Source: Patescibacteria group bacterium | GTDB taxonomy: Bacteria > Patescibacteriota > Minisyncoccia > CAIUEV01 > JAHKAQ01 | Length of the DNA stretch: 64,000 nt | NCBI GenBank assembly: GCA_034716235.1 | Contig: JAYEHH010000019.1 | Span: 16,114 to 80,113 of the forward strand | Direction of reading: 5' to 3' | Shown: one piece after another, positions 58,431 through 62,802 of the stretch | How positions within the stretch are numbered: position 1 is the first letter of the stretch | Layout: each line of letters opens with the position of its first letter | Notes under the pieces: model-generated | The model's input: the letters and a program-made list of their open reading frames with translations, nothing else | Told to the model about the DNA's origin: nothing | Databases searched by the model: none | Position numbers and translations under genes: made by a program

Positions 58431-59171
58431 TTACCGAGAACGCATTCCTCGTCTTTCCCAGGGGTGAATTCTATGAGCAATAAAGATTTTTCCTTGAATC
58501 ATTCTGCCAATCATTTTTACTTTTTCTGCTGGTTTTAGGGATGATCTTGGATGAAGTACTGCATTTTGAACATTAACGCTCCATTTTTCTCCTGAAAAAT
58601 CTTTTAATAAAATTACGTTATCATCTTGTTTCTCTAAAATTGTTCCGGCTAAAAATCCATTTTCTGGATTAGACCATCTTGAAATTTTATGTTCCTCAAT
58701 ACTAGCGTAAGAAGTTATTTTTTTGGCAAAAATATTATCAATTTTTTGGGCTCCGCCACTATAGAAAAATAAAAGCCCTAGTAAAATACTGATTAAGATG
58801 TTAGCTGTTATAACTAATTGAGCGGTATAACGATAGCCGGTTTTAGTGTGTTTAACACCAAAAATAGAGATTATAGAAAATAGGATTAAGAGTATAATCC
58901 ATAAGAATGGCAAAGAGGCGATGAAAAATTTAATACGAGAATTTAATGATTCCGCCAGAGTGTTGAAATCACTTTCCAAAACCGCATAAAGAATAATTGA
59001 AAAAACAATACCACCAAAAATTGCAAATATAAAAAACAAACTCCAAAAGAGATAATTTCTTAAGACATAATGCCAACAGGGATTGGGTTTAATGTTTTCC
59101 GTGGTGATTGTTTTTAGCAATTCTTGTGATTTTTTAGTTAGTTTTTTCATAATAATATTATTATAAATCAA
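58431..59171 (-). CDS. Putative membrane anti-sigma factor
   Basis: Its start overlaps the ECF sigma gene stop by 4 nt. Four TM helices with cytoplasmic and extracytoplasmic segments. Confidence 0.35.
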   Translation of the reverse strand: MIYNNIIMKKLTKKSQELLKTITTENIKPNPCWHYVLRNYLFWSLFFIFAIFGGIVFSIILYAVLESDFNTLAESLNSRIKFFIASLPFLWIILLILFSIISIFGVKHTKTGYRYTAQLVITANILISILLGLLFFYSGGAQKIDNIFAKKITSYASIEEHKISRWSNPENGFLAGTILEKQDDNVILLKDFSGEKWSVNVQNAVLHPRSSLKPAEKVKMIGRMIQGKIFIAHRIHPWERRGMRSR

Positions 59172-59755
59172 AAAGAAATATTCTTGGATGTAAATTTTTT
59201 GCGAAATGCTTTCTTTGCGCGATGGATAAGGGTTGCAATTGTACCAGACGGTTTTTTCAAGATATCAGAAATCTCACGATAGTTTTTATCTTCTAAAAAT
59301 TTTAGAATTAAAACTTCACTGTACTTTTTAGGAAGATCATCAAGAATCTTTCTAATTTCCATGGAACTAAATTTTTTATGCACCTGTTCAGCAAGGTTTA
59401 GCTCGGATGGCAAATTATTAAAAGCATCCTCATCAATTTTGATTTGCTTTTCTTTCCCCCGCGATTTAGTTTTCTTCCACTCTGATATAGTAGTGTTGCG
59501 AACAATTCGATAAGCCCAACTGGAAAATTTTAAACTACTGTCAAATTTATTTAAATTTTTCCAAATTTTTATAAAAGCTTCTTGTAAAACATCTTCGGCT
59601 CCTTCTCGGGGGAAATAAGAAATACGTAAAATATAATGTAGAAGTTTTTGTTCATAACGTTCAAACAAACAAGCAAAATACTTAATATTTTCTAATGATT
59701 TACGAACTAAATCTTCATCGCTTAATTTTTGACACTCTTTTTTTGGAATTTGCAT
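59168..59755 (-). CDS. ECF-type sigma-70 family RNA polymerase sigma factor
   Basis: Region 2 'DVLQEAFIKIWKNLNKFD' and region 4 'YSEVLILKFLEDKNYREISDILKKPSGTIATLIHRAKKAFRK'. Confidence 0.75.
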   Translation of the reverse strand: MQIPKKECQKLSDEDLVRKSLENIKYFACLFERYEQKLLHYILRISYFPREGAEDVLQEAFIKIWKNLNKFDSSLKFSSWAYRIVRNTTISEWKKTKSRGKEKQIKIDEDAFNNLPSELNLAEQVHKKFSSMEIRKILDDLPKKYSEVLILKFLEDKNYREISDILKKPSGTIATLIHRAKKAFRKKFTSKNISF

Positions 59756-59839
59756 ATATTATTTATCTTGGAAATACTTTCACAAATCTGCTGGCAGACT
59801 TTGTCCATTATGGATTAGCACAGATGAAAGCTAGCCCCG

Positions 59840-59962
59840 TTGTCGGCGAGCTTCTACAATCTTCTTACCCTTTTTAGTCTTAGCCATTGTATTTAATTAA
59901 TTGATTTTGGGGCTAATTGATGATTCTAGAAGAAGAGTATTTTCAGTATAGTCTAAATTTTA
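59840..59962. repeat. Direct repeat copy B (with a 26-bp insertion relative to copy A)
   Basis: 'tgtcggcgagcttctacaatcttcttaccc...aattgattttggggctaattgatgattctagaagaagagtattttcagtatagtctaaatttt'. Confidence 0.7.
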
Positions 59963-60047
59963 TTATTTTTACAGAGAGAAAAAGGAATTATCTTATAAGA
60001 ACTAAAAATATGAATTTTGACCAAGGCAGAAGGAAAGGTGAAGCTAC

Positions 60048-60110
60048 TTGTTGACTTTCGATATACTTTCGATATACTGATAATATACTCGAAAATAAAT
60101 CGAAAGTTAG
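60048..60110 (+). promoter_or_regulatory. Promoter/operator of the LexA-MTase gene: TTGACT-N16-TATACT with three ATATACT iterons at 11-bp phasing, flanked by inverted ACTTTCGA/TCGAAAGT
   Basis: ttgactttcgatatactttcgatatactgataatatactcgaaaataaatcgaaagt. Confidence 0.4.
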
Positions 60111-60124
60111 TTAATTCAAGCACT

Positions 60125-61666
60125 ATGATTACTAAAAGACAAAAAGAAATTCTAAATTTTATTAAATCTTATAAAGAAAGAGAGAATCAGGCACCTTCTT
60201 TGGAGGAAATTAAAAAATATTTAAACCTTTCTGCTGTTTCTACTGTTCATTATCACATAAAAAAGCTTAAAGATGCAGGATTATTGCAAAAAAGAAAAAA
60301 TCAGCCACGTTCTATTGTGACTGTCAAAGAACGGGAAATGATTAGAGTGCCAATCAAAGGAATAATTGCAGCTGGGCAACCAATTGAAGCAGTAGAAACT
60401 TCTGGTGAGTCAGTTTCAGTGGAAAAAAATGATTATAATTCAAGGGATGTATATTATGCTTTGCGTGTGAGAGGAAATAGTATGATTAATGATGGTATTT
60501 TTAACAACGATCTTGTCATAATTAAAAAACAAGCTAGCGCAGAAAATGGGCAAACAGTTGTTGCCATCATTGATGACAATGAAGCAACGCTCAAGAAACT
60601 ATACAAGCTTGATCATATGTTTAAATTAGAACCAGCCAATCAGAACATGCTTCCTTTATATAGAAAGGAAGTTGAGGTTCGTGGAGTTGTGGTGAATATT
60701 ATTCGTAGTCTCGAATTGCGAGAAAAATTACGCACGCTTGATTTATTTGCAGGAATTGGAGGGATAAGGCTTGGCTTTGAAAAAGCTAACTTTAAAACTG
60801 TATTCGCAAATGATTTTGAGAAACAATGCAAAGCGACATATGACGCAAATTTCAATGTATGTAAATTGATTGTTGAGGACATTACCAGAATAGAACCTGA
60901 AGATTTACCAGAATTTGATTTTCTTCTTGGTGGCTTTCCGTGTCAACCATTTTCTGTTGCAGGATATCGAGAAGGTTTTAAGGATAAAAAAGGTCGTGGC
61001 AATTTATTTTTTTATATTGCACAAATTATAGAAAAAAGACGACCAATGGGATTCTTGCTTGAGAATGTTAAGAATTTAAAGAGCCATGACCATGGTCGCA
61101 CTTTTAAAATTATAGAAAAAACATTAAAAGATTTAGGCTATCATATTAAATCAAAGATTTTAAATAGCATGGAATATGGAAATGTTCCTCAAAATAGAGA
61201 AAGAATTTATATTGTTGGGTTCAAAGATAAAAAACATGCAGATAATTTTATTTTTCCAAGAAAGAAGAAATTAATCACAAGAGTAACTGATTTATTAGAA
61301 AAAAATGTTGATAAAAAATATTATTACAATGGCAAACCATTGTATGAAAAAATAAAAAATGATGTAAAAGAGAGAGGAAAGGTATATCAATGGCGTAGAA
61401 AATATGTTCGTGAAAATAAAAGCGGAGTTTGTCCAACCCTAACTGCAAACATGGGAACTGGCGGACACAATGTCCCGATTATAAAAGACAGAAAAGGGAT
61501 CAGAAAACTAACACCCTTAGAATGCGCACGCTTGCAAGGTTTTCCTATGGATTATAAATTACCAAATTTAGCAGATTCTACATTATATAAACAACTTGGA
61601 AATTCTGTGACAGTTACAGTTGTTGAAGCGGTAGCAAGAGAAATTAAAAAGGTTGTTGAGGATTAA
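60125..61666 (+). CDS. LexA-like repressor (wHTH + S24 autopeptidase) fused in-frame to a Dcm-type DNA (cytosine-5) methyltransferase
   Basis: LexA part: 'GIIAAGQPIEA' (Ala-Gly cleavage loop), 'RVRGNSMINDG' (catalytic Ser), 'EATLKKLYK' (catalytic Lys), 'VEVRGVVVNIIRS'. MTase part: motif I 'LFAGIGGIRLGF', IV 'GGFPCQPFSVAG', VI 'FLLENVKNL', VIII 'QNRERIYIVGF', X 'LGNSVTV'. ATG at 60125 is preferred over the track's TTG at 60017. Confidence 0.8.
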   Translation: MITKRQKEILNFIKSYKERENQAPSLEEIKKYLNLSAVSTVHYHIKKLKDAGLLQKRKNQPRSIVTVKEREMIRVPIKGIIAAGQPIEAVETSGESVSVEKNDYNSRDVYYALRVRGNSMINDGIFNNDLVIIKKQASAENGQTVVAIIDDNEATLKKLYKLDHMFKLEPANQNMLPLYRKEVEVRGVVVNIIRSLELREKLRTLDLFAGIGGIRLGFEKANFKTVFANDFEKQCKATYDANFNVCKLIVEDITRIEPEDLPEFDFLLGGFPCQPFSVAGYREGFKDKKGRGNLFFYIAQIIEKRRPMGFLLENVKNLKSHDHGRTFKIIEKTLKDLGYHIKSKILNSMEYGNVPQNRERIYIVGFKDKKHADNFIFPRKKKLITRVTDLLEKNVDKKYYYNGKPLYEKIKNDVKERGKVYQWRRKYVRENKSGVCPTLTANMGTGGHNVPIIKDRKGIRKLTPLECARLQGFPMDYKLPNLADSTLYKQLGNSVTVTVVEAVAREIKKVVED

Positions 61667-61669
61667 AAA

Positions 61670-62233
61670 TTATTCCCAAACCCTTACATTTGTTGCCAGT
61701 GGCTTTATTTTATTTTCTTGTATAATTTCTTGAATACTCATTCTTGGTCTTCGTTTTTCGGTTTGTTGTTGCCTTAATATTTGGTTTTTATTAACCTGCT
61801 TTTCATAAATCAAATTATTCGGTATTAAATAAACATCAAACGAACCATCTAGATCGCCATTTCTATAAAAATTCATAAAATATAAATCATCCCACTCGGT
61901 TTTAGGTCCAAAAGATGTTAAATCTTTTGCGATGCTTGTTGCTTTAATTTGCTCTTTGCGATTGGATTTAAGATTTATAGTATCGAAAGATACCGTTCCA
62001 GCACCTCTTATTTTTCTTTGGAATCTAACAGAACCAGAAAACACACAAAACATTCCTTCAGAAAGTACTTCCGGTATATTTACCTTTCTACCATATTTAG
62101 ATAACCCAACATTTAATCTTTTCCATAAATCAAATAATCGTTTGAAAGCTTTTGCATCCGTTTGACTCATAATAGCAATCTCAATAGCTAGCTCATGGTT
62201 ATCTATAACAACTTTTTGTTTTTGTAATTTCAT
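61670..62233 (-). CDS. Putative type II restriction endonuclease, tail-to-tail with the MTase
   Basis: 187-aa ORF whose stop lies 3 bp from the MTase stop on the opposite strand. Possible PD-(D/E)xK elements 'FDVYLIPNNLIYEKQ'. No confident family assignment. Confidence 0.35.
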   Translation of the reverse strand: MKLQKQKVVIDNHELAIEIAIMSQTDAKAFKRLFDLWKRLNVGLSKYGRKVNIPEVLSEGMFCVFSGSVRFQRKIRGAGTVSFDTINLKSNRKEQIKATSIAKDLTSFGPKTEWDDLYFMNFYRNGDLDGSFDVYLIPNNLIYEKQVNKNQILRQQQTEKRRPRMSIQEIIQENKIKPLATNVRVWE

Positions 62234-62360
62234 AAAATTATTGAATTAAATTTTAGACTAGAATTTATAGTTTTATTTAAATTTAATAAAACATGAGAAT
62301 ATAAGAAATTACTTGTGGTTGGTTCCAGTCACTTTCGTAAATCTGTTGGCGGGCGAAGGC

Positions 62361-62502
62361 GGAGAGGGAGGGATTTGCCCCGCATGCGCGGGGCACCACG
62401 TCGGATGACGTGGTGAACCCTCTATTTCTGCGGAGAGGGAGGGATTTGCCCCGCATGCGCGGGGCACCACGTCGGATGACGTGGTGAACCCTCTATTTCT
62501 GC
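62361..62502. repeat. Two tandem 71-bp units, each a tRNA-Ser 3'-end fragment (ggagagggagggattt...gaaccctc) interrupted by a 38-bp GC-rich double-hairpin insert
   Basis: Units at 62361-62431 and 62432-62502. Hairpins gccccgcATGCgcggggc and caccacgtcGGATgacgtggtg. The array abuts the genuine tRNA 3' end at 62502/62503. Confidence 0.85.
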
Positions 62503-62588
62503 GGAGAGGGAGGGATTTGAACCCTCGGTACCAATAAAGGTACACCTGCACTCCAAGCAGGCCCATTCGGCCACTTTGGTACCTCTCC
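62502..62588 (-). tRNA. tRNA-Ser (anticodon GGA), class II, no encoded CCA
   Basis: Reverse complement GGAGAGGTACCAAAGTGGCCGAATGGGCCTGCTTGGAGTGCAGGTGTACCTTTATTGGTACCGAGGGTTCAAATCCCTCCCTCTCCG, with anticodon loop TTGGAGT and a long variable arm. Confidence 0.75.
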
Positions 62589-62726
62589 TTGTACACAACT
62601 AACAACCTCTAACAACTAACAATTAACTTGATAGCTTTATAAACTTGATAACACATAAACGTAAAACATAAAATGGTAAGTATTACTTAAGATTGGATTC
62701 GCCCCGCATGCGCCAGATTACACTTT

Positions 62727-62802
62727 CCTACCTCACCTACCTCACCTACCTCACGGCAGGCAGGCGGCAGGCAGGCGGCAGGCAGGCGGCAGGCAGGCGT
62801 GG
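62727..62802. repeat. Adjacent microsatellites (cctacctca)x3 and (ggcaggcaggcg)x~4
   Basis: Visible directly at cctacctcacctacctcacctacctcac ggcaggcaggcggcaggcaggcggcaggcaggcggcaggcaggcg. Confidence 0.85.

What the first reader, a model, noticed from the sequence alone, without database searches (positions are those of the whole stretch)
60048..62233. LexA (HTH + S24 autoprotease) fused in-frame to a C5-cytosine DNA methyltransferase, paired with a convergent restriction-endonuclease-like ORF
Seen in the sequence:
- Residues ~1-200 of the 60125-61666 product align block-for-block with LexA: an N-terminal winged HTH, the Ala-Gly cleavage loop 'IAAGQP', the Ser nucleophile in 'GNSM', and the general-base Lys in 'LKKLYK'.
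- This continues without a stop into a complete Dcm-type MTase carrying motifs I, IV (PCQ), VI (ENV), VIII (QxRxR) and X (GN).
- A 187-aa ORF ends 3 bp away on the opposite strand, the usual position of a Type II restriction-endonuclease partner.
- Upstream is a sigma70-like promoter whose -10 is embedded in three ATATACT iterons phased at 11 bp, between inverted ACTTTCGA/TCGAAAGT arms. This is a plausible operator for the fused HTH.

Established knowledge: LexA self-cleaves at Ala-Gly when bound to RecA*-ssDNA. Several m5C MTases (M.EcoRII, M.MspI, M.SsoII) carry N-terminal HTH regions for autoregulation. To my knowledge none carries an S24 autoprotease.

Inference: this is a DNA-damage-responsive restriction-modification module. 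An SOS signal would sever the operator-binding domain from the methylase. That could derepress the locus or shift the balance between methylation and restriction, which would be a suicide/abortive-infection logic.

The locus abuts a tRNA-Ser carrying att-like partial duplications, consistent with horizontally acquired DNA.
Basis: partly seen in the sequence, partly recalled or inferred. Interest (0 to 1): 0.85.

Follow-up and report, generated by a model that had tools for sequence, protein, structure and literature searches.

The report
LexA repressor fused to restriction-modification methylase
A complete, apparently cleavage-competent SOS repressor (LexA) is fused in one protein to the DNA methylase of a small mobile restriction-modification system; such LexA-methylase fusions are widespread in Patescibacteria, apparently undescribed, and suggest that DNA damage directly controls how much protective methylase the cell makes.

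Summary
The gene at 60125-61666 encodes a 513-aa protein with a full LexA (winged HTH, Ala83-Gly84 site, Ser119/Lys157 dyad) joined by about 8 residues to a complete HhaI-like C5-cytosine methylase. The convergent 187-aa gene 3 bp away is a Bsp6I-family (GCNGC) Type II endonuclease.

It is not an assembly artefact. More than 120 sequence clusters and at least 65 species-level genomes, nearly all Patescibacteria, carry the same fusion with all catalytic residues invariant.

New findings:
- The closest relatives of this LexA module are LexA fusions to every class of DNA methylase (N6/N4, Dam-like, gamma, C5).
- The methylase pairs tail-to-tail with at least 8 unrelated partner families, in variable flanks.
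- The promoter carries an 11-bp-phased direct repeat (TTTCGAT here, TTTCGGT in most relatives) between -35 and -10.
- The half-site of that repeat covaries with recognition-helix residue 43.
- Three stand-alone lexA genes have the same promoter layout.

Best reading: a self-repressed methylase gene that RecA-triggered self-cleavage derepresses, boosting methylation when DNA is damaged or self-restricted. Cleavage, binding and the biological purpose are inferred, not shown. I found no published description. It is a new variant of a known kind.

The parts
60051..60078 (+). Sigma-70-type promoter of the fusion gene: -35 TTGACT (60051-60056), 16-nt spacer, -10 TATACT (60073-60078).
   Evidence: It is the best + strand consensus match in 59700-62700 (10 of 12 positions). 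In about 60 related loci a TATAAT-like hexamer follows the direct repeat by 0-2 bp in the same way.
60056..60073 (+). Operator O1: direct repeat TTTCGAT-ATAC-TTTCGAT with an 11-bp period. It fills the spacer between the -35 and -10 hexamers.
   Evidence: - The repeat is present at this position.
- A repeat sits at the same position in 44 or more relatives as TTTCGGT-N4-TTTCGGT, and as TTTCTA or TTTCGA variants in others.
- The half-site covaries with HTH residue 43.
60089..60107 (-). Operator O2: the same direct repeat in inverted orientation (ACTTTCGATTTATTTTCGA on the minus strand). It lies just downstream of the -10 hexamer, over the expected transcription start and 5' leader.
   Evidence: - It forms a 19-nt inverted repeat with O1.
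- An inverted second copy is conserved in the window's own sub-clade (L001, L088, L090) and in L007, L011, L061 and L087.
60125..61666 (+). CDS of the LexA-methylase fusion (513 aa plus stop).
   Evidence: More than 120 full-length homologue clusters have the same three domains.
60128..60310 (+). LexA winged-HTH DNA-binding domain (residues 2-62). The recognition helix is around S39-L48 (STVHYHIKKL).
   Evidence: It matches PF01726 (E 4.7e-12) and aligns to solved LexA structures. Residue Y43 aligns with E. coli LexA Glu45.
60371..60376 (+). Codons of Ala83-Gly84, the predicted self-cleavage bond.
   Evidence: The bond aligns to E. coli LexA Ala84-Gly85. Ala is present in 120 of 121 and Gly in 121 of 121 family members. 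Both are invariant in 53 fusions to other methylase classes.
60359..60694 (+). S24 autopeptidase / dimerisation domain (residues 79-190). Ser119 is encoded at 60479-60481 and Lys157 at 60593-60595.
   Evidence: It matches PF00717 (E 1.4e-24). Ser119 is present in 121 of 121 and Lys157 in 120 of 121 family members. Both are invariant in the 53 other-class fusions.
60731..61651 (+). C5-cytosine DNA methyltransferase domain (residues 203-509). The catalytic Cys273 is encoded at 60941-60943.
   Evidence: - It matches PF00145 (E 2.9e-94), TIGR00675 (339 bits) and PADLOC MTase_II (403 bits).
- The closest solved structure is M.HhaI, matched over its full length (E 3e-57).
- All motifs are invariant.
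61670..62233 (-). Convergent Type II restriction endonuclease gene of the Bsp6I family (187 aa).
   Evidence: - It matches PF09504 RE_Bsp6I at residues 9-172, covering profile positions 9-170 of 179 (E 2.3e-12), and PADLOC REase_II (E 5.5e-27).
- The same family occupies the same tail-to-tail position in 26 related loci.
62359..62588 (-). tRNA-Ser(GGA) (62501-62588) followed by two perfect 71-nt tandem units (62359-62500). Each unit is headed by a copy of the tRNA's 3' 19 nt. This marks the boundary of the cassette's neighbourhood and is not shown to be part of the system.
   Evidence: The tRNA and the repeats were found. There is no further copy elsewhere in the window.

Best explanation
This is a mobile two-gene Type II restriction-modification cassette. 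It pairs a GCNGC-type m5C methylase with a Bsp6I-family endonuclease. The methylase carries a complete LexA repressor as its own N-terminal regulator.

**Proposed cycle.**
1. After entry into a cell, the promoter is free and the methylase accumulates.
2. LexA-methylase dimers then bind the 11-bp-phased direct repeats. O1 sits between the -35 and -10 hexamers, and O2 sits over the transcription start. Binding shuts the gene down to a low set-point.
3. DNA damage produces RecA-coated single-stranded DNA. The damage can include double-strand breaks made by the cassette's own endonuclease at under-methylated sites, or unmethylated tracts laid down by repair synthesis.
4. The S24 domain then cuts the Ala83-Gly84 bond. 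The 83-residue HTH falls away from the S24-methylase body, the operators clear, and methylase synthesis bursts.
5. The two genes abut tail-to-tail with no room for a terminator. Stronger methylase transcription may therefore also dampen endonuclease expression by convergent interference.
6. The net effect is a damage-gated 'restriction alleviation' loop that keeps the host chromosome protected.

**Shown here.**
- The domain architecture and its conservation.
- Intact catalytic residues in both halves.
- The restriction-modification context and the mobility of the cassette.
- The position, uniqueness and covariation of the operator.

**Inferred.**
- DNA binding and repression.
- RecA-stimulated cleavage.
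- Retained activity of the S24-methylase fragment.
- Transcriptional interference with the endonuclease gene.
- The selective purpose.
For: **The fusion is real and under selection.**
- More than 120 clusters (at 90% identity) are 65-100% identical to it. All are about 513 aa and have the same three Pfam domains.
- At least 65 GTDB species representatives carry it.
- Ala83, Gly84, Ser119, Lys157, Cys273 and the ENV, QxRxR and GN motifs are invariant or present in 120 of 121 members.
- The S24 and methylase parts are more conserved than the hinge and the linker.

**The LexA-methylase link is specific.**
- I scanned 53 LexA-N-terminal proteins drawn from the closest relatives of the LexA module among 1.84 billion representatives.
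- All 53 have LexA_DNA_bind plus S24.
- Their C-terminal parts are DNA methylases of every class: N6_N4 in 31, Eco57I in 7, D12 in 5, N6_Mtase in 5, C5 in 3.
- The cleavage site and the catalytic dyad are invariant in all 53.

**The context is restriction-modification.**
- The partner gene matches RE_Bsp6I and PADLOC REase_II.
- In every fusion locus with downstream sequence there is a tail-to-tail partner gene. It belongs to one of at least 8 families, including Bsp6I-like, NgoFVII-like and PD-(D/E)XK.
- Vsr lies next to the fusion gene in 8 of the fusion loci and next to the stand-alone methylase in 3 others.
- GCNGC is the most depleted of the comparable motifs in the window, at observed/expected 0.61.

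**The repeats behave as an autoregulatory operator.**
- The direct repeat abuts or overlaps the -10 hexamer in 44 or more loci.
- A weight-matrix scan finds it essentially only at fusion promoters in 848 kb of loci plus the 64-kb window.
- Helix residue 43 covaries with the half-site. E/Q goes with TTCGG in 48 of 51 cases. Y/H/F goes with TTC(G/T)A in 15 of 15 cases. The pattern holds across methylase classes.
- This residue aligns with E. coli LexA Glu45, a base-contacting residue (alignment; the contact is from my knowledge of PDB 3JSO).
- LexA proteins that bind direct repeats are established, including in Patescibacteria (PMC7739468).

**Other support.**
- An unfused lexA-like gene followed by a separate methylase gene exists in L061.
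- Relatives 78-81% identical sit in unrelated flanks with different endonucleases.
- None of the 80 best IMG/VR hits includes the LexA part. The fusion is therefore cellular rather than phage-borne.
Against: - No experiment or expression data exist. Cleavage competence is inferred from residues alone.
- recA was not found in the window or in any fetched locus. The required co-protease is therefore assumed to be present in the genome.
- The endonuclease promoter carries no operator. Any effect on restriction is therefore indirect and speculative.
- Three stand-alone lexA genes have the same promoter layout and box. A resident LexA could therefore control this promoter, and the fused LexA could bind host SOS boxes. 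In that case the circuit would not be private.
- The covariation is not phylogenetically independent.
- The window's own promoter lacks the DnaA-box element that most relatives have. Its regulation may therefore differ in detail.
Confidence: 0.55

Rival explanations
1. The fusion protein is the cell's bona fide, and possibly only, LexA. A chromosomal lexA gene with its native promoter captured a methylase, and the protein runs whatever SOS regulon these reduced genomes have. The restriction-modification function rides along, or makes the cassette hard to lose.
For: - The LexA part scores above the NCBIfam lexA equivalog cut-off, and PGAP names these proteins LexA.
- The promoter layout (DnaA box, -35, TTTCGGT-N4-TTTCGGT, -10) is the same as at three stand-alone lexA genes.
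- No second lexA lies in the 64-kb window or in about 650 kb of flanks of the fusion loci.
- In the LexA tree, fusions outnumber the stand-alone proteins with which they are interleaved.
Against: - The cassette sits in unrelated genomic contexts even among relatives 78-81% identical. It swaps endonuclease partners and has a patchy distribution.
- Operator and helix specificity differ among close relatives (TTCGG, TTCGA, TTCTA). That is hard to reconcile with a regulator constrained by many target sites.
- No further boxes were found in 848 kb of flanking DNA, which is roughly one genome-equivalent in total.
- LexA modules are attached to many different methylases. That looks like a portable regulator rather than a housekeeping gene.
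Confidence: 0.2
2. Suicide or abortive-infection logic. Damage-triggered cleavage inactivates or destabilises the methylase, for example by exposing degrons as in E. coli LexA fragments. The endonuclease then cuts newly made unmethylated host and phage DNA.
For: - E. coli LexA cleavage fragments are degraded by ClpXP and Lon (established knowledge).
- The N-terminal fragment would end in ...IAA, which resembles a ClpX tag (sequence; the inference is mine).
- The endonuclease gene has its own promoter without an operator.
Against: - Cleavage at Ala83-Gly84 leaves residues 84-513, the whole methylase, intact.
- Cleavage also derepresses synthesis of new methylase, which works against suicide.
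- Nothing in the data bears on fragment stability.
- The fusion is absent from viral contigs, and no abortive-infection-type partner genes are present.
Confidence: 0.1
3. The LexA module serves only as a DNA-binding and dimerising autorepressor, functionally like the N-terminal HTH of M.SsoII or M.EcoRII. It does not respond physiologically to damage, and the catalytic residues are retained for structural reasons or by recent descent.
For: - Autoregulation by methylase-borne HTH regions is established for SsoII, EcoRII and MspI (knowledge).
- The operator evidence supports binding, not cleavage.
Against: - Ala-Gly, Ser and Lys are invariant across 121 C5 fusions spanning 65-100% identity.
- They are also invariant across 53 fusions to other methylase classes whose LexA modules are 40-58% identical to the window's.
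- That is hard to explain without selection for cleavage.
- The S24 core is among the most conserved stretches of the protein.
Confidence: 0.12
4. Assembly or sequencing artefact: two adjacent genes, lexA and a methylase gene, are joined by a lost stop codon or a frameshift.
For: An unfused arrangement does exist in one distant relative, L061.
Against: More than 120 independent clusters from NCBI, JGI, ENA and Logan assemblies show the same uninterrupted frame of about 513 aa and the same short linker.
Confidence: 0.01

Closest known systems
LexA repressor (S24 family; E. coli LexA PDB 1JHH/3JSO, Thermotoga LexA 3K2Z)
   Same: - It has a full-length match: winged HTH, hinge with Ala-Gly, and the Ser/Lys dyad. 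It scores above the TIGR00498 cut-off.
- An operator sits in its own promoter.
- It uses a direct-repeat box, as reported for some LexA lineages including Patescibacteria (PMC7739468).
   Different: - It is not a stand-alone protein of about 200 aa. Its C-terminus continues after about 8 residues into a 310-aa DNA methylase.
- It lies in a mobile restriction-modification cassette.
- No SOS regulon was detected around it.
Self-regulating C5 methylases with N-terminal HTH regions (M.SsoII/M.Ecl18kI, M.EcoRII, M.MspI)
   Same: A C5 methylase carries its own N-terminal DNA-binding region, which is predicted to repress the methylase promoter.
   Different: - Those N-terminal regions are short HTH segments without a protease.
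- Here the regulator is a complete LexA with an autopeptidase, so repression can be relieved irreversibly by a damage signal.
- The genes here are convergent rather than divergent, so one operator cannot control both promoters.
Bsp6I / Fnu4HI-type (GCNGC) and NgoFVII-type (GCSGC) Type II restriction-modification systems
   Same: - The endonuclease belongs to Pfam RE_Bsp6I.
- Sister cassettes use an NgoFVII-like endonuclease.
- The methylase is a compact, monospecific, HhaI-like enzyme.
   Different: The specificity was not determined here. No described member of these systems has a LexA-fused methylase, as far as the literature searches show.
C-protein (controller) regulated restriction-modification systems
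   Same: A dedicated DNA-binding regulator with its own operator times and limits expression of a mobile restriction-modification cassette. Operator-specificity variants resemble the 'immunity groups' of C-boxes.
   Different: - There is no separate C gene.
- The regulator is fused to the methylase and acts on the methylase gene, not the endonuclease gene.
- It carries a damage-sensing protease.
Damage-responsive regulators of defence and mobile elements (lambda CI and SetR-type S24 repressors; CapH/CapP of CBASS)
   Same: An element-encoded repressor is inactivated by a DNA-damage signal and so induces element or defence genes.
   Different: Those regulators are separate proteins. Here the sensor-repressor is covalently part of the enzyme it regulates.

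Membership tests
LexA (TIGR00498 / PF01726 + PF00717) | N-terminal LexA-type winged HTH | tested here: met
   PF01726 matches residues 2-62 (E 4.7e-12). The region aligns to solved LexA structures from residue 2.
LexA (TIGR00498 / PF01726 + PF00717) | Ala-Gly cleavage site plus the Ser/Lys catalytic dyad of the S24 domain | tested here: met
   Ala83-Gly84, Ser119 and Lys157 align to E. coli Ala84-Gly85, Ser119 and Lys156. They are invariant or present in 120 of 121 homologues.
LexA (TIGR00498 / PF01726 + PF00717) | Whole-protein score above the curated equivalog cut-off | tested here: met
   The score is 156.6 bits against a cut-off of 110.95, over residues 2-196.
LexA (TIGR00498 / PF01726 + PF00717) | Stand-alone repressor of about 200 aa | tested here: not met
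   The protein is 513 aa, and a methylase domain follows at residues 203-509.
LexA (TIGR00498 / PF01726 + PF00717) | Binding sites in its own promoter (autoregulation) | tested here: inconclusive
   Conserved, covarying direct repeats overlap the promoter. Binding itself was not tested.
LexA (TIGR00498 / PF01726 + PF00717) | RecA*-stimulated self-cleavage | not testable with these tools
   This needs biochemistry. recA was not found in the window or the loci.
LexA (TIGR00498 / PF01726 + PF00717) | Control of a DNA-damage (SOS) regulon (recA, uvr genes, translesion polymerases) | tested here: inconclusive
   No further boxes were found in the 64-kb window or in 848 kb of related loci. Whole genomes could not be searched.
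C5-cytosine DNA methyltransferase (PF00145 / TIGR00675) | Motifs I (FxGxG), IV (PCQ with catalytic Cys), VI (ENV), VIII (QxRxR) and X (GN) in the canonical order | tested here: met
   PF00145 matches profile positions 2-324 of 324 (E 2.9e-94). The motifs are invariant in 121 sequences. M.HhaI matches over its full length.
Type II restriction-modification system | Adjacent methylase and endonuclease genes of recognised families | tested here: met
   The matches are PF09504 RE_Bsp6I, PADLOC REase_II and PADLOC MTase_II. The pairing recurs in 26 loci.
Type II restriction-modification system | Matching sequence specificity of methylation and cleavage | not testable with these tools
   There are only indirect hints. 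The Bsp6I and NgoFVII partner families both target GCNGC-type sites, and GCNGC is depleted in the window (observed/expected 0.61).
SsoII-type self-regulating methylases | Short N-terminal HTH region homologous to that of M.SsoII/M.EcoRII, acting on a divergent M/R intergenic region | tested here: not met
   The N-terminal region here is a full LexA. The genes are convergent. The resemblance is functional only.
C-protein controlled restriction-modification systems | Separate small controller gene with a C-box upstream | tested here: not met
   There is no such ORF between 59755 and 62233.

The most novel reading that the evidence does not exclude
LexA-methylase fusions are not a curiosity of one cassette. 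They may be the main form, in many lineages the only form, in which Patescibacteria carry LexA. On this reading the DNA-damage sensor of these reduced genomes is wired primarily to restriction-modification.

A stronger version goes beyond switching transcription. The S24 domain would dock the methylase onto RecA filaments, so that repair-synthesised, unmethylated DNA is methylated before the endonuclease can cut it. The conserved DnaA box next to the operator would add a replication-status input to the same promoter.
Probability: 0.2. Interest if true: 0.85.

Novelty: new variant of a known kind. Interest (0 to 1): 0.7.

Why it matters
Restriction-modification systems must balance killing foreign DNA against cutting their own chromosome. 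The known control devices (C-proteins, methylase-borne HTH regions, antisense RNAs) sense only the system's own products.

A methylase fused to a cleavable LexA would be the first restriction-modification regulator that reads DNA damage directly. Damage is the very consequence of self-restriction. Such a regulator would provide a built-in restriction-alleviation loop for Type II systems.

The same LexA module is attached to all classes of DNA methylase. It comes with a recognisable promoter-operator cassette whose specificity covaries with one helix residue. That makes it:
- a natural, portable, damage-inducible expression module;
- a clean system for studying how LexA specificity and direct-repeat binding evolve.

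It also bears on genome annotation. These proteins are currently named either 'LexA' or 'cytosine methyltransferase'. Counts of SOS regulators and of orphan methylases in Patescibacteria are therefore both distorted.

Tried and rejected
- **Artefact hypothesis.** Rejected on the homologue evidence.
- **Degenerate LexA hypothesis.** Rejected at the sequence level.
- **Second lexA or recA.** I searched the window and all loci and found none. The rest of the genome could not be reached, and the window's own protein is not indexed for contig look-up.
- **Operator elsewhere.** I searched for the operator upstream of the endonuclease gene and elsewhere, by regex and by weight matrix. There were no convincing extra sites, only three marginal hits. 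A single half-site-like ACTTTCGTA lies at 62331-62339, about 100 bp upstream of the endonuclease start, and I judge it to be chance.
- **att sites.** I tested whether the tRNA-Ser repeats bracket the cassette. They do not.
- **Phage origin.** I tested for one. None of the 80 best IMG/VR hits has the LexA part.
- **Stand-alone relative P0170.** A homologue search was meant to show that it is patescibacterial. Instead, its named relatives are Planctomycetes (Phycisphaerae) and Omnitrophica LexA. I therefore do not claim that the LexA clade is exclusive to Patescibacteria.
- **Literature.** Eight full-text searches found no description of a LexA-methylase fusion. The key paper on the Patescibacteria SOS network (Sanchez-Osuna et al. 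2017, Environ Microbiol) is not held, so I cannot exclude that it mentions these fusions.
- **Rfam and composition.** Rfam found only the tRNA in 59-64 kb. The cassette's G+C content does not stand out from its neighbours.
- **Structure prediction.** Not run. The profile and PDB sequence matches already settle the folds, and the tool does not report inter-domain geometry.
- **First covariation script.** It used a faulty regular expression and was replaced.

Full report
**What is in the sequence**

The ORF at 60125-61666 (+) encodes 513 aa. The mechanical ORF begins at a TTG at 60017, but every homologue starts at the MxTK(R/K)QK encoded from the ATG at 60125.

Pfam finds three domains: LexA_DNA_bind (residues 2-62), Peptidase_S24 (79-190) and the C5 DNA_methylase domain (203-509, whole profile).

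NCBIfam gives the lexA equivalog TIGR00498 156.6 bits over residues 2-196, against a cut-off of 110.95. It gives dcm TIGR00675 339.5 bits.

Against solved structures, the first 196 residues align end to end with Thermotoga and E. coli LexA. IAAG|QP falls on VAAG|EP, GNSM on GMSM and LKKL on VKRL. This gives Ala83-Gly84, Ser119 and Lys157.

The rest of the protein aligns over its full length with M.HhaI (E 3e-57). About 8 poorly conserved residues join the last strand of the S24 domain to methylase motif I.

The convergent 187-aa ORF (61670-62233, minus strand) ends 3 bp from the methylase stop. It matches Pfam RE_Bsp6I over its whole length (E 2.3e-12) and a PADLOC Type II endonuclease model (E 5.5e-27). 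The methylase matches PADLOC MTase_II.

Upstream, TTGACT-16 nt-TATACT (60051-60078) is the best plus-strand promoter match. ATATACT recurs at 60061, 60072 and 60083. A 19-nt inverted repeat joins 60054-60072 to 60089-60107.

**Not an artefact, and not rare**

A search of 5.8 billion proteins returned more than 120 clusters at 65-100% identity. All are about 513 aa with the same three domains, and they come from NCBI, JGI, ENA and Logan assemblies. Sources name them either 'transcriptional repressor LexA [Patescibacteria group bacterium]' or 'DNA (cytosine-5)-methyltransferase 1'.

A scan of one genome per GTDB species found 571 relatives. Of the best 80, about 65 are full-length fusions, in Paceibacteria, Moran-, Uhr-, Nomura-, Giovannoni-, Shapiro- and Zambryskiibacteria and in Saccharimonadales. 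A few carry other automated labels. The rest are stand-alone methylases 63-70% identical to the methylase half, from DPANN archaea, Gracilibacteria and Nanosyncoccus.

In 121 aligned family members:
- Ala83 is present in 120, Gly84 in 121, Ser119 in 121 and Lys157 in 120.
- The methylase motifs PCQ, ENV, QxRxR and GN are present in all 121.
- The S24 and methylase parts are more conserved than the hinge and the linker.

**A general LexA-methylase family**

I searched the LexA part alone (residues 1-198) with phmmer against 1.84 billion representative proteins. The closest hits are almost all proteins of 430-890 aa with LexA at residues 1-197, while ordinary LexA proteins of about 200 aa follow at lower scores.

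I scanned 53 of these long proteins with Pfam:
- All 53 have LexA_DNA_bind plus S24.
- The C-terminal part is a DNA methylase of one class or another: N6_N4_Mtase in 31, Eco57I-type in 7, D12 (Dam-like) in 5, N6_Mtase in 5, C5 in 3. The remainder are fragments.
- Ala83, Gly84, Ser119 and Lys157 are invariant in all 53.

In a rough neighbour-joining tree, the fusions occupy one half, interleaved with a few stand-alone LexA proteins.

Three loci of other classes show the same layout. Each has a LexA-methylase gene, sometimes a second methylase gene, and then a tail-to-tail gene of unknown family where the endonuclease would be. They are L083 (D12), L086 (N6_N4) and L087 (gamma).

None of the 80 best matches in IMG/VR includes the LexA part.

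**A mobile cassette with interchangeable endonucleases**

I clustered the ORFs of 80 loci. In every fusion locus that extends far enough, the gene immediately downstream is convergent. It belongs to one of at least eight unrelated families:
- Bsp6I-like (26 loci);
- a family with the NgoFVII B3-like DNA-binding domain (15 loci);
- a PD-(D/E)XK family (7 loci);
- five families without Pfam matches.

Bsp6I cuts GCNGC and NgoFVII cuts GCSGC (my knowledge of these enzymes). This fits a single methylase specificity across the family, whose target-recognition region is nearly invariant.

A Vsr mismatch endonuclease gene lies next to the fusion gene in 8 of the fusion loci and next to the stand-alone methylase in 3 others, as is usual for m5C methylases. 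The other flanks differ from locus to locus. Serine recombinase genes recur among them, in 7 fusion loci and 2 stand-alone-methylase loci.

Even the closest relatives of the window's protein sit in unrelated neighbourhoods with different partners:
- P0010 is 79% identical and pairs with a 285-aa ORF of unknown family.
- P0017 is 78% identical and pairs with a PD-(D/E)XK protein.

The stop codons of the two genes overlap or lie within 3 bp of each other in the window, L087, L088 and L090. This leaves no room for a terminator.

In the window, GCNGC is the most depleted of twelve comparable motifs (58 observed, 94 expected). GGCC, GCGC and CCNGG are also depleted, so this is weak support.

**The operator**

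Aligning the 130 bp upstream of about 60 fusion genes shows little conservation except a fixed architecture. Most have TTTCGGT-N4-TTTCGGT, a direct repeat with an 11-bp period, followed within 0-2 bp by a TATAAT-like hexamer.

The window has the variant TTTCGAT-ATAC-TTTCGAT (O1, 60056-60073). A second copy lies in inverted orientation just downstream of the -10 hexamer (O2, 60089-60107). The same two-operator layout is kept in its nearest relatives L001, L088 and L090, which mix TTTCGA and TTTCTA half-sites, and in L007, L011, L061 and L087.

The unit under selection is therefore the TTTC(G/T)(G/A)T half-site.

A weight matrix built from 44 sites finds 48 of its 52 hits at fusion promoters across 848 kb of loci plus the window. 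One of the other four is the window's own O2, which also lies in the fusion promoter. The remaining three are marginal. In the window, the pattern occurs only at O1 and O2.

The half-site covaries with the recognition helix:
- Proteins with H-(E/Q)-H at residues 42-44 have TTCGG repeats in 48 of 51 cases. The other three have no repeat called.
- Proteins with Tyr, His or Phe at residue 43 or 44 have TTC(G/T)A repeats in 15 of 15 cases.
- The pattern includes fusions to N6_N4 and gamma-class methylases.

Residue 43 aligns with E. coli LexA Glu45, which contacts bases in the LexA-operator structure (my recollection of PDB 3JSO). The sequences are related, so this is not a formal statistical test. 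Still, the pattern is what a self-operator predicts.

LexA proteins that bind direct repeats are established for several lineages, and a review of this point cites Patescibacteria among them (PMC7739468). The primary paper is not held.

**Relation to ordinary lexA genes**

Three stand-alone lexA genes fall among or near the fusions in the tree: L081, L084 and L085. They carry the same promoter layout, with TTTCGGT-N4-TTTCGGT (TTTCGGC-N4-TTTACGGT in L084) just upstream of the -10 hexamer.

The fusion gene therefore looks like a whole lexA gene, promoter included, joined to a methylase. An unfused version also exists: in L061 a 219-aa LexA-like gene is followed after 24 bp by a separate methylase gene.

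This cuts two ways:
- It supports the view that the repeats are a LexA box.
- It means a resident LexA could cross-regulate the cassette, and it keeps alive the possibility that the fusion is the cell's own LexA.

I could not settle this. No second lexA and no recA lie in the window or in any locus, and whole genomes are out of reach of these tools.

The named relatives of one stand-alone protein (P0170) are from Planctomycetes and Omnitrophica. I therefore do not claim the LexA clade is confined to Patescibacteria.

**Mechanism**

The best-supported reading is a self-repressed methylase gene whose repressor is disabled by DNA damage.

Shown:
- The architecture.
- Conserved catalytic residues in both halves.
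- The operator's position over the -35/-10 spacer and the transcription start, and its uniqueness and covariation.
- The restriction-modification context.

Inferred from established LexA biology:
- Dimers bind the operator and repress transcription.
- RecA-coated single-stranded DNA triggers cleavage of Ala83-Gly84.
- Cleavage detaches the 83-residue HTH from the S24-methylase body, which keeps the complete methylase domain, and the promoter fires.

Inferred purpose: raise methylation capacity when the chromosome is being broken or resynthesised. This includes breaks made by the cassette's own endonuclease, and it is a Type II analogue of restriction alleviation. Low steady-state methylase also avoids protecting incoming phage DNA.

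Convergent transcription into the endonuclease gene might lower restriction at the same time. This is speculation based only on the tail-to-tail packing.

A pure non-cleaving autorepressor is hard to square with invariant Ala-Gly, Ser and Lys across distantly related fusions.

**Comparison with known systems and novelty**

The system works like the self-regulating methylases M.SsoII, M.EcoRII and M.MspI, and like C-protein-controlled systems, in that a cassette-encoded DNA-binding module limits expression. It works like LexA, lambda CI and SetR in how repression would be lifted.

It is a member of the LexA sequence family by every sequence criterion except the stand-alone architecture. It is also a member of the C5 methylase and Type II restriction-modification families. 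It is not homologous to the SsoII-type N-terminal region, and it has no C gene.

Eight full-text literature searches found no description of a LexA-methylase fusion. Public annotation calls these proteins either LexA or a methyltransferase. The library lacks most subscription journals, so prior mention cannot be excluded.

I rate it a new variant of a known kind. Two well-understood modules are combined in a way that implies a new control input for restriction-modification systems, and the combination recurs across all methylase classes.

**Context of the cassette in the window**

Upstream lie a sigma-70-family gene (59168-59755, minus strand) and membrane-protein genes. These identities rest on my reading of the translations, not on a family search.

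Downstream lie tRNA-Ser(GGA), then dnaG running off the window. The tRNA's 3' 19 nt are repeated twice at 71-nt spacing, but no copy lies on the far side of the cassette. The G+C content of the cassette does not differ from its surroundings.

The repeats may mark an integration hot spot. They do not delimit this element.

Noticed in passing
Related loci, about 85 bp upstream of the fusion start codon (e.g. L013, L015, L034, L083, L085, L086); absent from the window's promoter at 59950-60124: A perfect DnaA-box 9-mer (TGTGGATAA, the reverse complement of TTATCCACA) sits 19-24 bp (mode 22) upstream of the LexA direct repeat. It is exact in 34 of 62 fusion promoters, and present with at most one mismatch in 47 of 62. 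Only 52 exact copies occur in all 848 kb of loci. It is also present at stand-alone lexA L085 (in the opposite orientation) and at the D12- and N6_N4-class fusions. This suggests a DnaA (replication-status) input at these lexA-type promoters.
   Followed up: partly
window 62359-62588, and 62700-62714: The 3' 19 nt of tRNA-Ser(GGA) recur twice, heading two perfect 71-nt tandem units. Each unit holds two G+C-rich hairpins (TGCCCCGCATGCGCGGGGCA and CACCACGTCGGATGACGTGGTG). A fragment of the first hairpin also lies on the other side of the tRNA. The units do not bracket the restriction-modification cassette. Their origin is unknown; repeated integration and excision, or terminator duplication, are possibilities.
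   Followed up: partly
L061 6001-7692: An unfused version of the system. A 219-aa LexA-like gene has Cys-Gly where the family has Ala-Gly. It is followed after 24 bp by a separate 335-aa methylase gene. Its upstream region carries TTTCTA/TTTCGA repeats.
   Followed up: partly
L066-L080 (e.g. L068, L071, L074-L079): Stand-alone methylases 63-70% identical to the methylase half occur in DPANN archaea, Gracilibacteria and Nanosyncoccus. They are often followed co-directionally, not convergently, by the NgoFVII-like partner. The change of gene order goes with absence of the LexA module.
   Followed up: no
window 62727-62799: Short perfect tandem repeats lie between tRNA-Ser and dnaG: CCTACCTCA x3, then CGGCAGGCAGG x4. 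Their function is unknown.
   Followed up: no
window 60368-60372: The only GCNGC site inside the cassette (GCAGC at 60368) lies on the Ala82-Ala83 codons at the cleavage site. Any Ala-Ala pair creates GCNGC, so this is probably a coincidence.
   Followed up: no
window 62331-62339 (about 100 bp upstream of the endonuclease start): A single half-site-like ACTTTCGTA differs by two adjacent bases from the operator half-site ACTTTCGAT. It has no 11-bp partner and is probably chance.
   Followed up: partly
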